Virus record (IMG/VR): IMGVR_UViG_3300037721_000031
Span: 64,001-128,000 of that record
DNA: 64,000 bases
Source: a virus
Lineage: Duplodnaviria > Caudoviricetes
Direction: 5' to 3' (one strand)
Part shown: positions 25,713 to 61,553 of the stretch, one piece after another
Position numbering within the stretch: position 1 is the stretch's first letter
Layout of the letters: every line of letters begins with the position of its first letter
The notes under the pieces: generated by a model
The model's input: only the letters and a program-made list of their open reading frames with translations
Databases searched by the model: none
What the model was told of the DNA's origin: nothing
Program-made: the position numbers and the translations under genes

Positions 25713-26288
25713 TTATTGATCAGTAGAGTCAGACACATAACGCATTGCAGCATTAGTCCAACACTGTGGTACATTACCTTCTTTTAAAGCAGTTCGTATA
25801 TCTTCCATTCCATCGATCAACCAATCGGAATTCTTTGGAAATATTACAATACGTCCGAGCACTGCTTCTGTATCACCTTTTTGACGAAATAAATAAAAGT
25901 GAGTCAGGGGTAGAGAAGATGCTATAAATGATTTCATCAAACCTTCATCCTGTATGATCTTTTGGTAGTTACCTGCCAAAATATCTTCCTGGAAGTTAGG
26001 ATTGTGAACCATTGGAAGTTCTTTACCAGCAACCTTAGCTCGAATACCGTACAGATAGCGTAGAGAATCTTGGCACTTTCCAGTTCTCATGTAGAACCAA
26101 AAACCTTCCATAGATTTGAAAGGTCCAAAGTAAGGATGTACGAACGGTGTAAGTGAAAAGTGTGAAAGCTTCTTTCCTAATCGCGTCACACAATTGCTGT
26201 ACATATTCAAGTACTCGATACCGTCCTTTGAAGGATCAATATCACTAGCCTTACGAAACATCTTCTTGGCTTGAATAGGTTTGTTCAT
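25713..26288 (-). CDS. Conserved phage protein, NADAR / T4 gp30.3-like
   Basis: LSHFSLTPFVHPYFGPFKSMEGFWFY resembles the NADAR-type SNF...PF...F.S.E..(F/W) motif. Confidence 0.45.
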   Translation of the reverse strand: MNKPIQAKKMFRKASDIDPSKDGIEYLNMYSNCVTRLGKKLSHFSLTPFVHPYFGPFKSMEGFWFYMRTGKCQDSLRYLYGIRAKVAGKELPMVHNPNFQEDILAGNYQKIIQDEGLMKSFIASSLPLTHFYLFRQKGDTEAVLGRIVIFPKNSDWLIDGMEDIRTALKEGNVPQCWTNAAMRYVSDSTDQ

Positions 26289-29256: not shown

Positions 29257-29928
29257 TTAGATTCCACTTGGTGACAAGTGCATGGCTACTAGGTATGTGC
29301 GTAACGCATCACTGGACTTAACACGAGTTCCTAAAGCAGCGATAGCGTCCTGACTTACACCACCAGTCTTAGCGATAGATTCATTCATTGCATTAAATCC
29401 TTGTGTGTCGCCACCACGGTATTTAATAAGTTCAGTTAAAGTTTTATCGAGATTAAGCGCTGCAAGAATCTGTACTTCAGGATAACTAATTTTAGATCCC
29501 TTAGATTCACCTGTAGGTTGACCAGTAAGATTATCTACAGAACGATTATGTTCAGGAATAGAGATCTTAGAAATCAACAGCTGAGCTTGTCGACGTAAAG
29601 GTAAGTCTATAACAAGATACGGAATTGGAGACAAGTACGGAGCTGATCCTTCCTTACTCTCCATCCAAATATGTTCAAAGAACTCGTGACCAATTTCTTT
29701 AGCTAATGCTAAGTTTCTCTCAACAGTCAAAGAGGTGTCATTCATAATTGGAGAGATAATGGCTAGTTTAATTGAACCATTATCTAATCCATTGATGAAG
29801 TTTTCAAACTGTTCATCATCCATCTCTTTAAATGCATCTTGATACATCTGTGGATTACTGGATCCTGGCAGTAACTTATCGACAAGCTTAATAATTACAG
29901 CCTCAGCAGCTGATCTATTTCCTGGCAT
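29257..29928 (-). CDS. Virion RNA polymerase beta-C subunit (phiKZ gp149-like)
   Basis: LPLRRQAQ...RSVDNLTGQPTGESKGSKISYPE corresponds to the beta C-terminal R...Y...TQQP..GK..G.R.GEME region; ELIKYRGGD. Confidence 0.82.
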   Translation of the reverse strand: MPGNRSAAEAVIIKLVDKLLPGSSNPQMYQDAFKEMDDEQFENFINGLDNGSIKLAIISPIMNDTSLTVERNLALAKEIGHEFFEHIWMESKEGSAPYLSPIPYLVIDLPLRRQAQLLISKISIPEHNRSVDNLTGQPTGESKGSKISYPEVQILAALNLDKTLTELIKYRGGDTQGFNAMNESIAKTGGVSQDAIAALGTRVKSSDALRTYLVAMHLSPSGI

Positions 29929-29931
29929 GAT

Positions 29932-30633
29932 TTATTCCTGGTTTATGGTGTCTGGCTGAACTTTAAATACAAGTGTAGGTATCTCTTTACTAAGAGCTAG
30001 CTCAATCATATTTTTTGTTCCGTTACTGTTCATATCGAAAAATGCTATTAAATGCGTAGCTACTTCAGCCATCTCAGCATTACGTACAAACCCTGCACGC
30101 TTACCAAGATTATCCCAATCAGCTGTAAATGGTACCCAACGTACACCGTTGCTTTCAGCCCACTTAATAGCCATGGCGTCAGCTCCACGACTTGCATTTC
30201 CAGATACGATCACAAAATTAGAAACACCAAGCATCTTTATCGCTTTTTCTAAGCGATCACAGAAATCCGTATAGTTATTCCAATTACGAGATCCAGCTAC
30301 TACAATCATAGCTGGAGGGTTGACTATATTGTCTGGTTGATGATGTAGATTACGGTTTGGTTTAGTTAATTTTCTACGACAATACTTCTTGACTCTAGAT
30401 TGGGAAATGTCTTTAGCAGTATACATCATTGATGATGCTGCGTGTACATCTCCCAATTCCATCTCTAGATCTCTACGATTAGTCTGTACTGGATCAAGAG
30501 GGTTATAGCTTTCATAACCATGTCGTAAGATCTTACCAACAGCCTTTACTGACTCACCGAGTTCCTCTACCAGGATCGAGAGTCTCTCTAGCTCAGCAGC
30601 ATTAAGTTGATTGGCATTATCCATAGTTACCAA
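29932..30633 (-). CDS. MazG-like NTP pyrophosphohydrolase fused to a SLOG (YspA/DUF2493-like) domain
   Basis: N-half LVEELGE..KAVGKILRHG...LEMELGDV (MazG EExxE/ExGD); C-half IVVAGSRNW...IVSGNASRGADAMA...AGFVRNAEMA...LIAFFD...GTKNMI (SLOG). Confidence 0.8.
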   Translation of the reverse strand: MVTMDNANQLNAAELERLSILVEELGESVKAVGKILRHGYESYNPLDPVQTNRRDLEMELGDVHAASSMMYTAKDISQSRVKKYCRRKLTKPNRNLHHQPDNIVNPPAMIVVAGSRNWNNYTDFCDRLEKAIKMLGVSNFVIVSGNASRGADAMAIKWAESNGVRWVPFTADWDNLGKRAGFVRNAEMAEVATHLIAFFDMNSNGTKNMIELALSKEIPTLVFKVQPDTINQE

Positions 30634-31040
30634 CTAAGGTTCGGAAGTTGATGCTTAACAATTACAGGTACTACACTTTCTTTAAACAACAGTAACCAGG
30701 TATACATAGGACCTTCATCCATAATGCAGTACCGTGCAACAGTGGTGTCTTCATCGACCATACCCAGAACAGGCCGCCAATACCTATTAACTAAAAACCT
30801 CTTAGCCATCTGAGGAGTACTGGGATCAGAGGCTACAGGATCTAAACCAATAGTCCACTTACTAGGCTCAGAGTGTCCGGCTTCAATCAGCAGCTCAGTA
30901 ATCGCTTGTACAGGATCAATTGCTTCTTCGGTAGGGTACTTATCCCTAAGTAATTGATTTGTACTTTTTTGGTCATTAGACATTATGTAACTTTCTAGAA
31001 AAAAAAAAGAATGATTGTTACAGAATACTGCTTGCATCAC
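30627..31040 (-). CDS. Hypothetical protein
   Basis: ORF track 137 aa; the real start is probably MSNDQK at about 30983. Confidence 0.65.
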   Translation of the reverse strand: MMQAVFCNNHSFFFLESYIMSNDQKSTNQLLRDKYPTEEAIDPVQAITELLIEAGHSEPSKWTIGLDPVASDPSTPQMAKRFLVNRYWRPVLGMVDEDTTVARYCIMDEGPMYTWLLLFKESVVPVIVKHQLPNLSW

Positions 31041-31055
31041 CGCAAGCAGTATTCT
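31022..31055. terminator. Hairpin terminator
   Basis: AGAATACTGCTTGC-ATCACC-GCAAGCAGTATTCT with a nearby A-run on the plus strand. Confidence 0.65.
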
Positions 31056-31661: not shown

Positions 31662-33128
31662 TTATCTACGAGTCCACGGACTATCATTTTTACTATTGTA
31701 AAAATCAATAGCTTTCTGAGGAGGATTTTCCATCCAATACGGAATGTATTTTCCAACACAGCACAGAATCAAGTCCATTGTAGATAAGAATGGGATATCC
31801 TCAAACTCGCCTTCAGGAGCCCACCAGCCGCGTGTATTGAGTAGTACGTTCCAATCGTAGCCTAAAGCAATAAGGCCGTCATAGAGCTGCTTTGGTGTAA
31901 GCTTTAGCTCAGGACTGATATGATGCCACAGTTCATTAATCTGTAGTAGTTCTGAAGCAATATTCAAACCACGACGCAATTCAGGATGTCGATCAATCTT
32001 ACCACGTATCGTAGTACGACTAAGCTTGATATCCGGACAGAAAACCAGATTATAGTTAATCAAACTACCATCCAAACCCCATCGCTCACTCTCTTTGATG
32101 TAGTGGAATTCAGTGAGAGAAGGCAATACTCCTTCTTGCTGCGATACTAGAATTTCCATAGCCATTCCAGAAGGCCCGGACTTACTACGTAATTGACGCA
32201 GTCGTACTACAGATAGGTCCGTATCAAGGTGCAGATTGTCTTCACCGTCACGAGGATATTCAGGGGCTTTAGTTGTTTGATTAATCAGCGGAATAGTACC
32301 GTAGCAGTGCCAACAGTTATTCATGATAAACGTAAACTTCTCAGGAACACCCTTGATCTTAACATCACCTTTCAGATGAGCTAGTTTATTAGGCTTTGGG
32401 TTGTTAGGATCCATCTCAAACTTATCGCCAATTTGAGCAACCATAAGTACATACGTACCTGACCCACCGGCCAACGCAGGAATCTCGGCAAGGAAACGAT
32501 TCTTCTGTAACCCTTGACGCATGAAAACTGTATTTGCACCTTTTTCACCAAGACTGTTATCATTCTGCATCTTGATTACGTCTTGAGTAACGAACTCGCT
32601 TAAAGAGTCAACTTCATTAAACGTAGGCAGAATAGTTTCAAGGTTACCAGTTCTCTCTCTATTAGGAAATGGTAATTTAATAAGAATGCTTCGTGCGTTC
32701 TTCTTCTTATTTTCCATGAACTCTTTGAAAATATCGTACCATTGATCGCCATGGTAAACTGTTTTATCAGTAATGACCCAGCGACCAGTATCCAGTATAT
32801 CTTCTCCGTAGAATTCACCGATAGCATCCATTAGTATTTTCAGGTGAGTCTCATGGACATTAATTTCAGTATCATAGGTACTAGCGGATGTCCTAGTACC
32901 AATACGACTCATAGCTGACAGCATACTGTAATGCATTAGCGTCGATTTGAATGAGTTACCCATTCCTACGAAGCCAGTTAATGTACCCAATCCACCGTTA
33001 AGGATATGCTCACCCTTTAGGCCTTTAATATATGTACCTGTCGGAATATCCATCAGACAGCCAATATTTATCATCACTTTGGTATTAGGTGCTGATGTAA
33101 AAACGTTTTGTTTTAAGTCCATATTCAT
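31662..33128 (-). CDS. uvsX: UvsX/RecA-like recombinase (phiKZ gp152-like)
   Basis: Walker A GMGNSFKST, YDTE, EVDSLSEF (Walker B), QLRSKSGPSG. Confidence 0.85.
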   Translation of the reverse strand: MNMDLKQNVFTSAPNTKVMINIGCLMDIPTGTYIKGLKGEHILNGGLGTLTGFVGMGNSFKSTLMHYSMLSAMSRIGTRTSASTYDTEINVHETHLKILMDAIGEFYGEDILDTGRWVITDKTVYHGDQWYDIFKEFMENKKKNARSILIKLPFPNRERTGNLETILPTFNEVDSLSEFVTQDVIKMQNDNSLGEKGANTVFMRQGLQKNRFLAEIPALAGGSGTYVLMVAQIGDKFEMDPNNPKPNKLAHLKGDVKIKGVPEKFTFIMNNCWHCYGTIPLINQTTKAPEYPRDGEDNLHLDTDLSVVRLRQLRSKSGPSGMAMEILVSQQEGVLPSLTEFHYIKESERWGLDGSLINYNLVFCPDIKLSRTTIRGKIDRHPELRRGLNIASELLQINELWHHISPELKLTPKQLYDGLIALGYDWNVLLNTRGWWAPEGEFEDIPFLSTMDLILCCVGKYIPYWMENPPQKAIDFYNSKNDSPWTRR

Positions 33129-34141: not shown

Positions 34142-36616
34142 TTACGATATTACTACATGTTCATTAAACTTGTCAGGCACAACAATATTAGATGCGCTAA
34201 GTACGCAACACTCTGTATTTGAGAGGGCTGTAAATTGTACGTAATCATGCGATATCATGTATAGTTGTGAAAATGCGCAGTAGTCTAGTAGGTACTTAAT
34301 TAGATTCACAGTACACGCTTTATGCTCAGCATCCATTCTCTGACCTAATTCGTCAGCAAATAACGGTGCGGAAGATAGATCTAAGTACTGCATGGCTACG
34401 ACTTTAAATGCAAGATCTATAATCTCACACATACCGCCGCTACCTTTAGAGATATCCGGCACAGGTGAATTACCATCACCAACAATCATTGGAAACTTAT
34501 AATCAAGTTCTGTATTACCAGATTCAGAATCTAAGCTGCAGTCCTGTACTTCTAATCGGTATGTCCAGATCTTACTTATCAGTAAGTTCATCTTGCGAAT
34601 AAAACTTCTGATGAATCCGAGCAATCCCTCAGCAATCAGTCCGTCATGAGGAGACAGACATTCCACTAATGTACTTAAAGCTTTCTCTTCTGATTCTAAA
34701 CGTTCTATATTTACTTCAATATCAGCAATGATACCGCGTTGTACGTTTATTTCATTTAAAGCATTTTGCTTCTGAGCTAGCTGGATTTGTAATTCATTCA
34801 AGCATTTATTAATGAATTCATTACGCATTGCTCGCAATAAGTCTACGGTATTATGTTCTAGCTTCTCAACAGACGACGACAGCATCTCACTTAATTTTAT
34901 AATCTCTTGTGTACGCAGTAGCTCTTGTTGCTTGTCTTGTAATAAGCGTTGTTTTTCACGTATAGATCGTGCTAAGCCGCCGAGTTCAACTTCTATTACT
35001 TTTAAAGCATCACTCATTTTACCAACGTCAGCATTATTAGCCTTTATAGCGAGATCAATCAGTGCGTTGTTATTTATCTGTTCAGTATTTAACTTTATGC
35101 ACTTTATGTCATATTCTAAATCTGTCTTAAGCTTTTCCATGTCTCGATATACCTGCATTGGGGAGGTATAGATTGTATCTTTAACAATACTCCAGAATGG
35201 ATTAAGAACAGGTATAGTGCGAACACAACGCATGTATTCGCGCATTAGTTCACCATACTTAACATTTTCCTCTATAGCTTTTTGAATCTCTAGTAGCTTT
35301 TTATTATGCTCTTCTAGAAACTTAGTACCTGAGTTAATGTCGTGATTTATTTTGTTTAGGTTATCTAGAGTATAGCCTGGTATCCACCTGTGTCTGCAAT
35401 TAGGACATTCAGTAGACTCACCATTACGTAAATCTTCCATATGTTTAAGTTGATGCTGTAGATGACTAACTGCGGATACTGCTCGCTGAATCTTATCTTT
35501 TAATTGATATTCTTTATCTTTAAGTGCCTGTAATGACTCAAAGCTCAGACTGCGATCTTCGTTAGGGGATATCTCATGAGTGATTCGCTCTACTAGGTCA
35601 AATATAGATAAGAGGGCTGCTTGAGCTGTAGAGGGATCATCAAAAACCAAATTAAGTTGTTTACGGCTTTGTATTTCATTTCTTTGAATGATTAACTCAT
35701 TATACTTACACCGCAAGTCATCCAGCCCAGAAATATCAGCTTTACTGTACGTGTCGTATTTTTCTTTTAACTCACCGTATGTTTTAAAGCGTATACTAGA
35801 TTCGGTATTGGTTCTTGTAATATCATGCTTGAGTTCATCAATGTAAGTACTTAACTCATCCAGTTTATTTGTTGTCTTTCCTTTTGTTAAAGAAATGACT
35901 CTATTACTAGATTTTAGTATTTCAGATTCAAGTCGGTTCTGATCAGCAATTATTTCAGATACACTAGATTTATCTTCTTTACGTGAATTGTATAGTAAAT
36001 TGATTTCTCTTAACAGGTTCTCTATATCCTGCTGTATTCGATTTGTTTCTTCAGAACTGATGATCTTAGCTGTTTCAACTACTAAACGCCTACGAGCTAG
36101 TTTTAGAGCACCTGATGTATCCCTACTGCGCTCGGAGACTTTATTATAAACGCCGATCGCATAATCATAACTAGTTTCACATAGCTCAGTAAACCATTTA
36201 CGACGAAGTGCCGGACTCATTGAAGAGAATTTCTCAACACCAGTAAGTAAGTCATGAATATCTTGCCTGTACCCGAAGATAGTTTTAACTAAGTCTTTTT
36301 GTACAGTGACAGTTCCACCAGTATTGAGCTCTTCTATTCCATTCTTAATGATAGAGTGTTTTTGAGTAGGATGGAACTTACTTGTCAAAGTGTACTCATC
36401 GTTCAGATGAGTAATCGATATGGCTTTATACCCATCTTTTTCATAATGGATAGGTGTAGCTGGGAGTGGAGATAGCTCACTCACAAGTGAAGACTTACCG
36501 CTGCCATTAGTTCCAAGTATGAGCTGAATACGTTCGGTTGGTGTAATCTTAAAGAAATTAATGTGATTCAAAGCCATGCGCTTGAATCCTTTTAATTCGA
36601 TCCAGTTTATTCTCAC
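34142..36616 (-). CDS. sbcC: SbcC/Rad50-like SMC ATPase (phiKZ gp165-like)
   Basis: Walker A GTNGSGKSS, coiled coils with a CPNC zinc hook, signature SKGSGG, Walker B LFADE, ISHD. Confidence 0.92.
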   Translation of the reverse strand: MRINWIELKGFKRMALNHINFFKITPTERIQLILGTNGSGKSSLVSELSPLPATPIHYEKDGYKAISITHLNDEYTLTSKFHPTQKHSIIKNGIEELNTGGTVTVQKDLVKTIFGYRQDIHDLLTGVEKFSSMSPALRRKWFTELCETSYDYAIGVYNKVSERSRDTSGALKLARRRLVVETAKIISSEETNRIQQDIENLLREINLLYNSRKEDKSSVSEIIADQNRLESEILKSSNRVISLTKGKTTNKLDELSTYIDELKHDITRTNTESSIRFKTYGELKEKYDTYSKADISGLDDLRCKYNELIIQRNEIQSRKQLNLVFDDPSTAQAALLSIFDLVERITHEISPNEDRSLSFESLQALKDKEYQLKDKIQRAVSAVSHLQHQLKHMEDLRNGESTECPNCRHRWIPGYTLDNLNKINHDINSGTKFLEEHNKKLLEIQKAIEENVKYGELMREYMRCVRTIPVLNPFWSIVKDTIYTSPMQVYRDMEKLKTDLEYDIKCIKLNTEQINNNALIDLAIKANNADVGKMSDALKVIEVELGGLARSIREKQRLLQDKQQELLRTQEIIKLSEMLSSSVEKLEHNTVDLLRAMRNEFINKCLNELQIQLAQKQNALNEINVQRGIIADIEVNIERLESEEKALSTLVECLSPHDGLIAEGLLGFIRSFIRKMNLLISKIWTYRLEVQDCSLDSESGNTELDYKFPMIVGDGNSPVPDISKGSGGMCEIIDLAFKVVAMQYLDLSSAPLFADELGQRMDAEHKACTVNLIKYLLDYCAFSQLYMISHDYVQFTALSNTECCVLSASNIVVPDKFNEHVVIS

Positions 36617-61113: not shown

Positions 61114-61553
61114 AGTACGTCGTAGGTCTTTTATTCAGTAAGAAATTGGATCAAGTTCTACTTTTAAAAAAGGTAAAAGGTCCAGAAGGCGTTGTAGGTA
61201 AGTGGAACGGTCATGGTGGTAAAATTGAGCCAACGGAATATGCACTAGATGCTATTGTAAGAGAAACAATTGAAGAGACTGGATTAGTTATACCTGCAAA
61301 AGACTGGTTACTATTTCATCACTTTATTCGAGCCGATGGTAATGAAGTTTATTTCTATACATCTACTATACCAGATAGTCAAACGTACAGTCAGATAGAA
61401 GAAGAAACTATTGAACTAAAATATGTTAATGATGTCATACTGTCTTTTCTTGGAGACGGTAGTTTAAACAATCCACATGTTTATAACTTGTCATACCTTA
61501 TTCCGATGGCGTTGTCTTATTGTAAGTTTCCACAGTTTCGTTACGCTGAGTAA
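61110..61553 (+). CDS. Nudix hydrolase (MutT-like)
   Basis: GKWNGHGGKIEPTEYALDAIVRETIEETGL Nudix box. Confidence 0.9.
   Translation: MKYVVGLLFSKKLDQVLLLKKVKGPEGVVGKWNGHGGKIEPTEYALDAIVRETIEETGLVIPAKDWLLFHHFIRADGNEVYFYTSTIPDSQTYSQIEEETIELKYVNDVILSFLGDGSLNNPHVYNLSYLIPMALSYCKFPQFRYAE

What the first reader, a model, noticed from the sequence alone, without database searches (positions are those of the whole stretch)
29932..30633. MazG-like pyrophosphohydrolase fused to a SLOG nucleotide-binding domain
Seen: a single ORF with a MazG-type helical domain ending ...NLHHQ, a short linker PDNIVNPPAM, then a complete YspA/DUF2493-like SLOG domain, inserted just upstream of the vRNAP beta-C gene. Established: phage MazG-like enzymes hydrolyse (d)NTPs or alarmones and some counter nucleotide-signalling defences; SLOG domains bind nucleotide ligands, for example the ADPR-derived signal sensed by ThsA in Thoeris. 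Inference: a sensor/sponge plus hydrolase against nucleotide second messengers, i.e. a candidate anti-defence protein.
Basis: partly seen in the sequence, partly recalled or inferred. Interest (0 to 1): 0.62.

Follow-up and report, generated by a model that had tools for sequence, protein, structure and literature searches.

The report
MazG–SLOG fusion gene in jumbo phage
An uncultivated giant (phiKZ-like) phage really does encode one protein that joins a nucleotide-cutting MazG enzyme to a SLOG nucleotide-binding domain; the pairing is rare, conserved and undescribed in the papers I could read, but nothing yet shows that it fights bacterial immunity and not simply manages nucleotides for phage DNA synthesis.

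Summary
Window 29932-30633, minus strand, is one open frame of 230 aa from ATG 30624 (233 aa from TTG 30633).

- **N-terminal half:** residues 1-96 are a small MazG-type all-alpha NTP pyrophosphohydrolase. Both acidic metal-binding motifs are invariant.
- **C-terminal half:** residues 106-230 are a canonical YAcAr/DUF2493 SLOG domain. It keeps every residue that is invariant across that family.
- **Not an artefact:** 13 further metagenome proteins (49-83% identity) carry the same uninterrupted fusion.
- **Rare:** in 1.84 billion cluster representatives, only one representative (this clade) matches both halves. No reference viral structure (BFVD) shows both domains, and no ESM Atlas cluster of 50 or more members shows both.
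- **Probable origin:** a stand-alone phage MazG gene read through into the SLOG gene that phiKZ-like phages keep between a UvsX-like recombinase gene and a virion RNA polymerase gene.

- The SLOG half is closer to DprA, YpsA and ShosA than to the ThsA sensor.
- Both parent families sit in replication and recombination modules.
- The genome has ThyA and ribonucleotide reductase but no trimeric dUTPase.

My best reading is a nucleotide-clearing enzyme with an attached nucleotide or ssDNA-binding module. The target nucleotide is unknown. It is a new domain architecture built from known families. An earlier scan note covers this same stretch; the scan holds no case of this fusion on other DNA.

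The parts
29932..30624 (-). MazG-SLOG fusion CDS (230 aa from ATG 30624; stop codon 29932-29934; an upstream in-frame TTG at 30633 would give 233 aa)
   Evidence: identical 230-aa protein P0001 in the protein collection. The ATG lies 2 nt after the TAA stop of the upstream ORF, read from the sequence.
30337..30624 (-). MazG-type all-alpha NTP pyrophosphohydrolase domain (res 1-96). Motifs: E20-E21-x-G-E24 and E54-x-E56-x-G-D59. Family-specific motifs: K31, R34-H35-G36-Y37, N49-R50, D72, K85, L93-H94-H95-Q96.
   Evidence: phrog_4856 E 9e-15; profile against 5ie9 and 2gta; N-domain model pLDDT 92.5 with MazG-family top Foldseek hits; invariant columns.
30310..30336 (-). Linker (res 97-105, PDNIVNPPA), probably the former intergenic stretch
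   Evidence: Lowest pLDDT of the model, 62-75. Stand-alone MazG relatives end at or just after LHHQP. Stand-alone SLOG proteins start at the Met before the first strand.
29935..30309 (-). YAcAr/DUF2493 SLOG domain (res 106-230). Motifs: G111-S-R113; S141-G-x-A-x-x-G147-A-D149; A168-D-W170; A177-G-x-x-R181-N182; D197; S200-x-G-T203-x-x-M206.
   Evidence: Pfam PF10686 E 6.6e-15; phrog_289; VIA-align Z 11.8 to ShosA and YpsA; the same residues are 84-100% conserved in 132 non-fusion SLOG segments and in alignment A4.
30627..30983 (-). Upstream ORF 'X' (118 aa from ATG 30983; phrog_37831). It is the homologue of the gene that precedes the SLOG gene in phage Goslar (Goslar_00242) and of FLC4-3B gp58.
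   Evidence: BLASTP E 1e-11 to Goslar_00242.
31022..31055 (-). 14-bp-stem hairpin followed on the minus strand by a T10 run. It probably marks the boundary of the unit X, MazG-SLOG, vRNAP beta piece.
   Evidence: consensus scan and direct reading; function not shown.
29257..29928 (-). Downstream gene: virion RNA polymerase beta-subunit piece, starting 3 nt after the fusion's stop codon
   Evidence: phrog_3233 E 2e-79; same neighbour in RSL2, FLC4-3B and Goslar.
31662..33128 (-). UvsX-like recombinase heading the conserved block
   Evidence: phrog_97 E 8e-39; syntenic with FLC4-3B gp59 'putative UvsX'.
25713..26288 (-). 191-aa ORF whose family is fused to a SLOG domain in other phages; possibly a divergent NADAR-like protein
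   Evidence: It matches positions 10-129 of phrog_11222 (E 1e-23), while the SLOG half matches positions 161-278 of the same profile. hhalign to NADAR-SLOG proteins: probability 39%, E 3e-4. No Pfam NADAR hit.

Best explanation
This is a genuine, conserved, lineage-specific gene fusion in a clade of uncultivated phiKZ-like jumbo phages. A stand-alone phage MazG-family gene landed between gene X and the resident SLOG gene. It lost its stop codon and now reads into the SLOG gene's old start (M106).

Shown: the N-terminal half has the fold and all four acidic metal ligands of small MazG enzymes, and the C-terminal half is a full YAcAr SLOG domain with the family's whole conserved pocket.

Inferred: the MazG half cuts a nucleoside triphosphate-type substrate between the alpha and beta phosphates, giving NMP plus pyrophosphate. 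The SLOG half binds the same nucleotide, its product or single-stranded DNA, and so captures, regulates or localises the hydrolase. The protein is probably an oligomer, as its parent families are.

The most likely role is clearing one unwanted nucleotide during phage DNA replication and recombination. I cannot decide from sequence whether that nucleotide is a pool contaminant, a canonical dNTP such as dUTP, or a host immune nucleotide.
For: - Fusion real and conserved: 14 proteins of 49-100% identity, all open across the join. Six of their contigs appear (by matching longest-contig lengths) to also hold homologues of the neighbouring 191-aa ORF, so they are likely syntenic relatives.
- MazG half likely active: E20/E21, E24, E54/E56 and D59 are invariant or nearly so in 26 family sequences and align to the motifs of 5ie9 and 2gta. 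Fold matches are MazG, DCTPP1, YpjD, iMazG and DR2231.
- SLOG half canonical: it keeps every family-wide invariant and has the SLOG fold at Z up to 11.8.
- Origin: LHHQP is the natural C-terminus of the stand-alone MazG family. The SLOG gene occupies the same site (UvsX, X, SLOG, vRNAP beta) in RSL2, FLC4-3B and Goslar. In an unfinished tree the fusion SLOGs group with the FLC4-3B SLOG (support 94).
- Replication-linked context: stand-alone MazG relatives lie between exonuclease and Gp2.5-type SSB, near primase and DNA polymerase. The window gene lies in a block with SbcC-like and UvsX-like genes. The genome has ThyA and RNR but no trimeric dUTPase or ThyX.
- Theme: YAcAr domains are repeatedly fused to enzymes that act on nucleotide phosphates or ADP-ribose: NADAR, PTP-type phosphatases and DUF4326; guanylate kinase (PMC9503650).
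Against: - No activity, ligand, localisation or expression data exist for this protein or for any YAcAr member (literature).
- The Pfam MazG score of the protein itself is below the cut-off.
- Outside this clade the two families are not neighbours: 85 stand-alone MazG-type loci, 32 of them at least 5 kb, have no SLOG gene nearby. The pairing could therefore be a neutral accident.
- A recombination-block position is weak evidence in a phage whose gene order is broadly conserved.
- Iyer et al. 2022 argue from other fusions that viral SLOG domains counter ADP-ribose-derived immune signals (PMC9503650), which favours the anti-defence rival.
Confidence: 0.5

Rival explanations
1. One reading: a counter-defence protein. 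The SLOG domain senses or sequesters a host immune nucleotide (an ADP-ribose-derived signal, an alarmone or a noncanonical NTP), and the MazG domain destroys it or a linked alarmone such as (p)ppGpp.
For: - Phage MazG Atd1 depletes (p)ppGpp and protects against TIR-STING toxicity (bioRxiv 10.1101/2022.06.09.495361).
- Iyer et al. predict that viral YpsA-like SLOG domains degrade or sense cADPR-type signals (PMC9503650; PMC7824862).
- The ThsA SLOG is a structural match at Z 8.9.
- NADAR-SLOG fusions are recurrent.
- A possible NADAR-like gene lies 3.6 kb away.
Against: - No sequence match to ThsA models in PADLOC; the only hit is ShosA at E 0.007.
- ThsA ranks below ShosA, YpsA, DprA and LOG-like folds.
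- MazG enzymes are not known to cut the ADP-ribose pyrophosphate (my own knowledge).
- The gene is not in an early or accessory island. It sits in a conserved core block next to a virion RNAP gene.
- The genome has no Pfam Macro, NADAR or DUF4326 gene.
Confidence: 0.3
2. Two-step nucleotide destroyer. MazG converts a (d)NTP to (d)NMP, and the SLOG domain is itself an enzyme that cleaves the N-glycosidic bond of that (d)NMP to give base plus (deoxy)ribose 5-phosphate. This removes the nucleotide irreversibly. It would resemble the DCTPP1 plus DNPH1 route in human cells and the LOG and PpnN enzymes (analogy from my own knowledge). This rival overlaps with both readings above.
For: - All catalytically active members of the TIR-DrHyd-SLOG class cleave or transfer N-glycosidic bonds of nucleotides (PMC9503650).
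- LOG and PpnN-type enzymes are structural matches at Z 8-8.5.
- YAcAr keeps many invariant polar residues (R113, D149, W170, R181, N182, D197, S200, T203).
- The MazG product (NMP) is the substrate class of LOG enzymes.
Against: - The position of the LOG catalytic Glu (PGGxGTxxE) is an invariant Met (M206) here. The motif is recalled from my own knowledge; the residue is read.
- By sequence the domain is nearest to non-catalytic DprA.
- No YAcAr enzyme activity has been reported.
Confidence: 0.2
3. DprA-like reading. The SLOG half binds single-stranded DNA and works with the neighbouring UvsX-like recombinase, or tethers partner enzymes to replicating DNA. The MazG half then sanitises dNTPs at that site.
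For: - The best sequence relatives among solved structures are DprA proteins (3uqz E 0.013; 4ljr), which share the GSR, SGxAxGxD and RN motifs.
- The position two genes from UvsX is conserved in four phage genera.
- YAcAr is fused to helicase (ICP1 HelB) and to NERD nuclease.
- Earlier scan notes report fusions to DNA polymerases and to an SNF2 helicase (not checked here).
Against: - DprA's flanking SAM and winged-helix domains are absent.
- The Pfam DprA score is below the cut-off (19.9 against 29.6 bits).
- A fusion to a free-nucleotide hydrolase fits a nucleotide ligand better than DNA.
Confidence: 0.15
4. Neutral accident. Two adjacent genes were merged by loss of a stop codon, and each half keeps its own unrelated job with no functional coupling.
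For: - The fusion is confined to one clade: a single 50%-identity representative out of 1.84 billion.
- No neighbourhood link between the two families elsewhere.
- The linker is short, of low confidence and variable.
Against: - The fusion has persisted down to 49% identity with both halves under strong constraint.
- The relic start Met is decaying in the most divergent members (K or R in P0013 and P0014), so there the SLOG half is unlikely to be translated on its own.
Confidence: 0.1

Closest known systems
Stand-alone phage MazG-like NTP pyrophosphohydrolases of phrog_4856 (e.g. Xanthomonas phage Bosa gp70, YP_009997072.1; Pseudomonas phage phiH2 gp14)
   Same: 36-54% identity over res 1-96. 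Same EExGE and ExELGD motifs, and the same family signature KILRHGYES ... YLHHQP.
   Different: They are about 90-140 aa proteins without a SLOG domain, in mid-size phages of Proteobacteria, inside replication modules. None is characterised.
Stand-alone YAcAr/DUF2493 SLOG proteins at the same locus of phiKZ-like phages (RSL2 ORF049 BAQ02577.2; FLC4-3B gp55; Goslar_00241)
   Same: Same family and same position between the UvsX/X genes and the vRNAP beta gene; 34-46% identity.
   Different: They have no MazG domain. RSL2 has an unrelated N-terminal extension of about 40 aa. In Goslar the SLOG frame has no start codon of its own (earlier notes).
NADAR-, Macro-, DUF4326- and phosphatase-SLOG fusions of phages and giant viruses (Iyer, Burroughs, Anand, de Souza, Aravind 2022, PMC9503650)
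   Same: A YAcAr SLOG domain joined to an enzyme that acts on a nucleotide or ADP-ribose derivative. I saw such fusions myself in P0098, P0100, P0129, P0130 and P0154.
   Different: The partner here is an all-alpha NTP pyrophosphohydrolase. That partner is not among those listed in that survey's text as I read it, nor in the jumbo-phage survey PMC7824862.
Atd1, the MazG-like anti-TIR-defence protein of Pectobacterium phage PcCB7V (Ho et al., bioRxiv 10.1101/2022.06.09.495361)
   Same: A small phage MazG catalytic domain. It shows that such enzymes can act as counter-defence by depleting (p)ppGpp.
   Different: No SLOG domain. I could not compare sequences because no Atd1 sequence was at hand. 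The two Pectobacterium phage hits of the N-domain are Arno162 and Arno18, not PcCB7V.
ThsA SLOG sensor domain of type I Thoeris (PDB 7uxs, 7uxt)
   Same: Same SLOG fold (Z 8.9 and 7.8).
   Different: Weaker match than ShosA, YpsA or DprA. No PADLOC ThsA hit. ThsA's SLOG controls a Sir2 NADase in a host defence protein, not a phage hydrolase.
DprA Rossmann-fold domain (PDB 3uqz, 4ljk, 4ljr)
   Same: Best sequence relative among solved structures, with shared GSR, SGxAxGxD and RN motifs; Z 10-11.
   Different: DprA has extra SAM and winged-helix domains and loads RecA on ssDNA. The Pfam DprA score here is below the cut-off.

Membership tests
MazG / all-alpha NTP pyrophosphohydrolase superfamily (Pfam PF03819) | Two acidic metal-binding motifs, EExxE then ExxD, on consecutive long helices | tested here: met
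   E20-E21-L-G-E24 and E54-M-E56-L-G-D59. They are invariant or nearly so in 26 family sequences and align to the same motifs of 5ie9 and 2gta.
MazG / all-alpha NTP pyrophosphohydrolase superfamily (Pfam PF03819) | All-alpha MazG fold | tested here: met
   N-domain model pLDDT 92.5. The top-ranked Foldseek rows are all MazG-family chains (5ie9, DCTPP1/RS21-C6, YpjD, iMazG) with probability 0.9-1.0, but E-values are weak (0.09-1) and TM is about 0.5.
MazG / all-alpha NTP pyrophosphohydrolase superfamily (Pfam PF03819) | Profile score above the curated family threshold | tested here: inconclusive
   The protein itself scores 17 bits, below 22. 12 of 14 fusion members hit the family below the cut-off. 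Five stand-alone relatives (about 38-54% identical) score 22.9-25.6 bits. phrog_4856 gives E 9e-15. NCBIfam gives nothing.
MazG / all-alpha NTP pyrophosphohydrolase superfamily (Pfam PF03819) | Hydrolysis of (d)NTP to (d)NMP plus pyrophosphate; dimer or tetramer assembly | not testable with these tools
   Needs enzyme assays and oligomer analysis.
YAcAr / DUF2493 SLOG family (Pfam PF10686) | Profile score above the curated threshold | tested here: met
   55.1 bits against 28.2, E 6.6e-15. All 14 fusion members hit the family.
YAcAr / DUF2493 SLOG family (Pfam PF10686) | SLOG-type Rossmannoid fold | tested here: met
   Five-strand alpha/beta domain with pLDDT 87-96 across residues 101-220. VIA-align Z 11.8 to ShosA and YpsA, 11.1 to DprA, 10.3 to MCP.
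YAcAr / DUF2493 SLOG family (Pfam PF10686) | Family-wide conserved pocket residues (GSR; SGxAxGAD; ADW; AGxxRN; D; SxGTxxM) | tested here: met
   All are present, and the same residues are 84-100% conserved in 132 non-fusion SLOG segments and in alignment A4.
ThsA-type SLOG sensor of Thoeris | Sequence membership in ThsA models | tested here: not met
   PADLOC scan at E up to 1 gives only ShosA at E 0.007 and no ThsA.
ThsA-type SLOG sensor of Thoeris | SLOG fold | tested here: met
   7uxs Z 8.9, 7uxt Z 7.8. Both rank below DprA, YpsA and ShosA.
ThsA-type SLOG sensor of Thoeris | Binding of gcADPR | not testable with these tools
   Needs binding assays or a ligand-bound structure.
LOG-type nucleotide phosphoribohydrolases | Catalytic Glu of the PGGxGTxxE motif | tested here: not met
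   The equivalent stretch is S200-N-G-T-K-N-M206, with Met 91% conserved family-wide. The LOG motif is recalled from my own knowledge and was not aligned residue by residue here.
DprA recombination mediator | Rossmann-fold domain flanked by SAM and winged-helix domains; Pfam PF02481 above threshold | tested here: not met
   PF02481 gives 19.9 bits, below 29.6. The SLOG half is only 125 aa, with no flanking DprA domains. Shared motifs exist.

The most novel reading that the evidence does not exclude
The fusion acts as a 'Rosetta stone' for the large, never-tested YAcAr SLOG family, which occurs in 958 of 50,697 phage records. It would show that these domains act on nucleoside 5'-phosphates. The protein would be a new kind of counter-defence enzyme that captures an NTP-type host immune or toxic nucleotide and destroys it in two steps: pyrophosphate release by MazG, then base removal or sequestration by SLOG.
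Probability: 0.15. Interest if true: 0.75.

Novelty: new variant of a known kind. Interest (0 to 1): 0.42.

Why it matters
YAcAr/DUF2493 SLOG domains are among the commonest uncharacterised domains of large phages. The SLOG half matches 958 phage records, and Iyer et al. 2022 report SLOG domains in 31% of jumbo phages (PMC9503650). I found no reported ligand or activity for any of them.

A natural fusion to a small, easily assayed MazG enzyme gives a concrete handle. The substrate range of the MazG half and the ligand of the SLOG half can be measured on one 230-aa protein. The result would separate three current ideas about the family: ADP-ribose signal processing, nucleotide sensing, and DprA-like DNA binding.

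If the target turned out to be an immune nucleotide, this would add a new enzyme type to phage counter-defence. If it is dUTP or another pool nucleotide, the finding is a modest piece of phage nucleotide metabolism.

Tried and rejected
- **Assembly artefact or frameshift at the linker:** rejected, because 13 independent open homologues exist.
- **Apparent full-length tblastn hits in cultured phages:** in Variovorax phage V45v66 (85% coverage) and Salmonella phage TR2 the match runs through stop codons of separate small ORFs into a stand-alone SLOG gene. These are not fusions.
- **P0053 (271 aa, two matched stretches):** it is a SLOG-SLOG tandem, not MazG-SLOG.
- **P0162, P0104, P0144, P0169, P0021:** these are MazG-type domains with other C-terminal tails and no SLOG.
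- **Gene-neighbourhood link between the two families:** none in 5 viral and 80 metagenome loci of the MazG-type family, and no MazG-type match in the six stand-alone SLOG loci L001-L006.
- **A hidden MazG upstream of the Goslar SLOG gene:** rejected. hhalign probability is 0.02. That gene is instead the homologue of window ORF X.
- **RSL2 ORF049 N-terminal extension as a MazG remnant:** no convincing alignment.
- **Single-sequence and fusion-profile searches of PDB sequences:** nothing useful. NCBIfam gave nothing.
- **Whole-model Foldseek:** only the SLOG half is seen.
- **ESM Atlas:** no feature hits.
- **Sigma-70 promoter scan:** fewer sites than in shuffles, so not informative.
- **Pfam NADAR, Macro and DUF4326 in the genome:** none found.
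- **ORF 25713-26288:** PDB sequence search gave nothing, and BLASTP against NADAR-SLOG proteins was not significant.
- **Tools and papers not available:** Burroughs et al. 2015, which defined the SLOG clades, is not held.
- **SLOG tree:** the search did not finish in the time allowed, so its topology is provisional.
Full report
**1. Is it there?**

Window 29932..30633 holds one ORF on the minus strand. From the first possible start (TTG 30633) it has 233 aa. From the ATG at 30624 it has 230 aa, and that form is stored in the protein collection as P0001 on a 266,566-nt contig. The ATG lies two bases after the TAA stop of the upstream ORF (sequence), so the two genes are probably translationally coupled.

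**2. The two domains**

C-terminal half:
- Pfam YAcAr (PF10686) scores 55 bits against a cut-off of 28.2, E 6.6e-15. phrog_289 gives E 1.6e-29.
- An AlphaFold2 model built on 14 sequences has mean pLDDT 88.7.
- Its C-terminal alpha/beta domain matches solved SLOG-superfamily structures: ShosA 8zva and YpsA 2nx2 (Z 11.8), TM1055 (11.2), DprA 3uqz (11.1), MCP (10.3), ThsA SLOG 7uxs (8.9), and LOG/PpnN-type enzymes (8.0-8.5).
- I compared it with 132 SLOG segments from proteins that are not fusions. Every residue that is at least 84% conserved family-wide is present: G111, R113, G142, G147, D149, A168, W170, A177, G178, R181, N182, M185, D197, S200, G202, T203, M206 (also alignment A4).
- It is therefore a normal, intact YAcAr domain.

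N-terminal half:
- Pfam MazG scores only 17 bits, below the cut-off of 22.
- phrog_4856 ('nucleoside triphosphate pyrophosphohydrolase') gives E 9e-15, and 12 of the 14 fusion proteins hit Pfam MazG.
- The domain belongs to a distinct family of small phage proteins with the signature EExGE ... KILRHGYES ... NR..LExELGD ... YLHHQP.
- Five stand-alone members of that family, about 38-54% identical to the window domain, pass the Pfam MazG cut-off.
- A profile of the family finds the solved MazG proteins 5ie9 (E 0.0025) and YpjD 2gta (E 0.01), with both acidic motifs in register.
- A model of the domain alone (pLDDT 92.5) has only MazG-family chains at the top of its Foldseek list: 5ie9, mouse and human DCTPP1, YpjD, iMazG, with DR2231 lower down. 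E-values are weak, as expected for a 97-residue helical hairpin.
- The four to six acidic residues that bind metal in MazG enzymes (E20/E21, E24, E54/E56, D59) are invariant or nearly so. I infer an active pyrophosphohydrolase.

**3. Real, conserved and rare**

- Thirteen other proteins from JGI, ENA and Logan assemblies (49-83% identity, 226-254 aa) have the same architecture with an open join. This excludes an assembly artefact.
- Six of their contigs appear (by matching longest-contig lengths) to also carry homologues of the 191-aa ORF that lies 3.6 kb away in the window. They are therefore likely syntenic relatives of this phage.
- A full phmmer search of 1.84 billion 50%-identity representatives found 16,423 proteins at E up to 0.001, but only one below 1e-30. 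That one (P0011) is the representative of this clade. All other top hits match one half only.
- Among the 198 proteins I collected, only P0001-P0014 contain both halves.
- Apparent full-length hits in two cultured phages were read-through of separate ORFs. P0053 is a SLOG tandem.
- BFVD has no viral structure that covers both domains (TM by query at most 0.52). The ESM Atlas has no cluster of 50 or more members with both.
- The two surveys of viral SLOG domains that I could read list these partners: Macro, NADAR, DUF4326, Nudix, HTH, HNH, exonuclease, SF1 helicase and guanylate kinase. Neither lists MazG (PMC7824862; PMC9503650).

**4. Genomic setting and origin**

- The genome is an IMG/VR virus record of 266.6 kb, estimated 98% complete. 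Other notes of this scan identify it as a phiKZ-like phage.
- The gene sits in a tight minus-strand block: SbcC-like (34142..36616), UvsX-like (31662..33128), a 162-aa ORF, a hairpin plus T10 run (31022..31055), ORF X (30627..30983), MazG-SLOG, the vRNAP beta piece and further conserved genes.
- In Ralstonia phages RSL2 and FLC4-3B and in Escherichia phage Goslar, the same block reads UvsX, X, SLOG, vRNAP beta, with a stand-alone SLOG gene. Window ORF X is homologous to Goslar_00242 (E 1e-11) and falls in the same PHROG as FLC4-3B gp58.
- So the SLOG gene is resident at this site in this phage group, and the MazG module is the newcomer.
- Stand-alone MazG-type proteins end at or just after LHHQP. 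Stand-alone SLOG proteins begin with a Met directly before the first strand. In the fusion a Met (M106) still stands there in 12 of 14 members but is K or R in the two most divergent.
- The simplest history is that a MazG gene inserted upstream of the SLOG gene, its stop codon was lost, and the nine-residue linker is the old spacer.
- A provisional tree places the fusion SLOGs in a clade (support 94) with the FLC4-3B SLOG (the search did not finish).

**5. What does it do?**

No YAcAr protein has been characterised. The library holds one paper that uses the name and five that mention DUF2493, none functional. The evidence is therefore contextual.

(a) The MazG family:
- It occurs in 60 phage records, mostly mid-size phages of Proteobacteria.
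- In Xanthomonas phage Bosa it lies between exonuclease and a Gp2.5-type SSB, near primase and DNA polymerase. In Pseudomonas phage phiH2 the same arrangement holds, with primase as the only named neighbour.
- Its solved relatives are house-cleaning (d)NTPases.

(b) The genome's nucleotide genes:
- It encodes ThyA and the ribonucleotide reductase large subunit, but no trimeric dUTPase and no ThyX. This ORF is its only MazG and its only SLOG.

(c) The SLOG half:
- By sequence it is nearest to the DprA Rossmann domain (3uqz E 0.013; shared GSR, SGxAxGxD and RN motifs) and to ShosA in PADLOC (E 0.007). It is not nearest to ThsA.
- The LOG catalytic Glu position is an invariant Met (motif recalled from my own knowledge).

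(d) Other partners of YAcAr domains:
- They are repeatedly fused to enzymes that work on nucleotide phosphates or ADP-ribose: NADAR (P0098, P0100, P0130, P0154), PTP-type phosphatases, DUF4326, DUF7831, NERD and helicase.
- The 191-aa ORF at 25713..26288 matches the N-terminal half of phrog_11222, whose C-terminal half is the SLOG domain. It is weakly NADAR-like (hhalign probability 39%, E 3e-4), although Pfam does not detect NADAR.

(e) No wider linkage:
- Outside the fusion clade the MazG-type and SLOG families are never neighbours in 85 loci.

My reading is that the MazG half hydrolyses an NTP-type nucleotide, and that the SLOG half binds that nucleotide, its product or ssDNA and so captures, regulates or localises the enzyme. 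Context favours a replication-linked clearing role, for example a dUTPase-like or other sanitising function.

The anti-defence model remains open. Atd1 shows that a phage MazG can act that way, and Iyer et al. predict that viral SLOG domains act on ADP-ribose signals. But I found nothing that points to it specifically, and the similarity to ThsA is the weakest of the SLOG matches. A catalytic SLOG (two-step destruction of a nucleotide), a DprA-like DNA-binding role, and a neutral fusion are further rivals.

**6. Verdict**

- This is a new domain architecture made of two known families, confined to one clade of uncultivated jumbo phages.
- Its main value is as a tractable entry point to the untested YAcAr family.
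- Interest is moderate (0.42).

Noticed in passing
window 25713-26288 (-): This 191-aa ORF matches positions 10-129 of phrog_11222, a two-domain phage family whose positions 161-278 are the SLOG domain. In other phages this domain and a SLOG domain therefore form one protein. Another first-reader note calls it NADAR-like. Pfam finds no NADAR, BLASTP to NADAR-SLOG proteins is not significant, and hhalign to NADAR-SLOG proteins gives probability 39%, E 3e-4. NADAR-likeness is therefore only weakly supported.
   Followed up: partly
window 30627-30983 (-) and L005:3684-4110 (phage Goslar): ORF X, directly upstream of the fusion, is the homologue of Goslar_00242 (E 1e-11). In Goslar the first SLOG strand and the GSR motif lie upstream of the annotated start, in the -1 frame relative to Goslar_00242. 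Earlier scan notes propose a -1 frameshift fusion there. In the window the MazG-SLOG frame is also -1 relative to X, but it has its own ATG two bases after X's stop and a TAG just upstream of the TTG, so no frameshift is needed.
   Followed up: partly
window 31022-31055: A perfect 14-bp-stem hairpin (loop GGTGAT on the minus strand) followed after about 13 nt by a T10 run. It lies between the 162-aa ORF and ORF X, and looks like a terminator or processing site inside the recombination block.
   Followed up: no
own genome G000:C1:229000-230172 (-), outside the window: The ThyA-type thymidylate synthase is a 409-aa open frame. The Pfam match is split into two pieces (profile 2-156 and 159-263) separated by about 85 extra residues, which suggests an insertion inside the enzyme. 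The genome has no trimeric dUTPase and no ThyX.
   Followed up: no
window 61122-61424 (+): The only Nudix hydrolase of the genome (E 1.7e-10, 152-aa frame) lies inside the radical-SAM gene region described in other notes.
   Followed up: no
L004 (Salmonella phage vB_SalP_TR2, MW544066.1 20689-29195): In this N4-like phage the stand-alone SLOG gene (annotated 'DNA binding protein') lies in an early-type region with two DUF4326 genes upstream and an 'ADP-ribose-binding protein' downstream. This is the ADP-ribose-processing neighbourhood described by Iyer et al. 2022.
   Followed up: no
L003:4790-5341 (Variovorax phage V45v66): The stand-alone SLOG gene is followed by a 183-aa P-loop protein (GTPGSGKST Walker A) that looks like a nucleotide or polynucleotide kinase. 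This is another SLOG neighbour that acts on phosphates.
   Followed up: no
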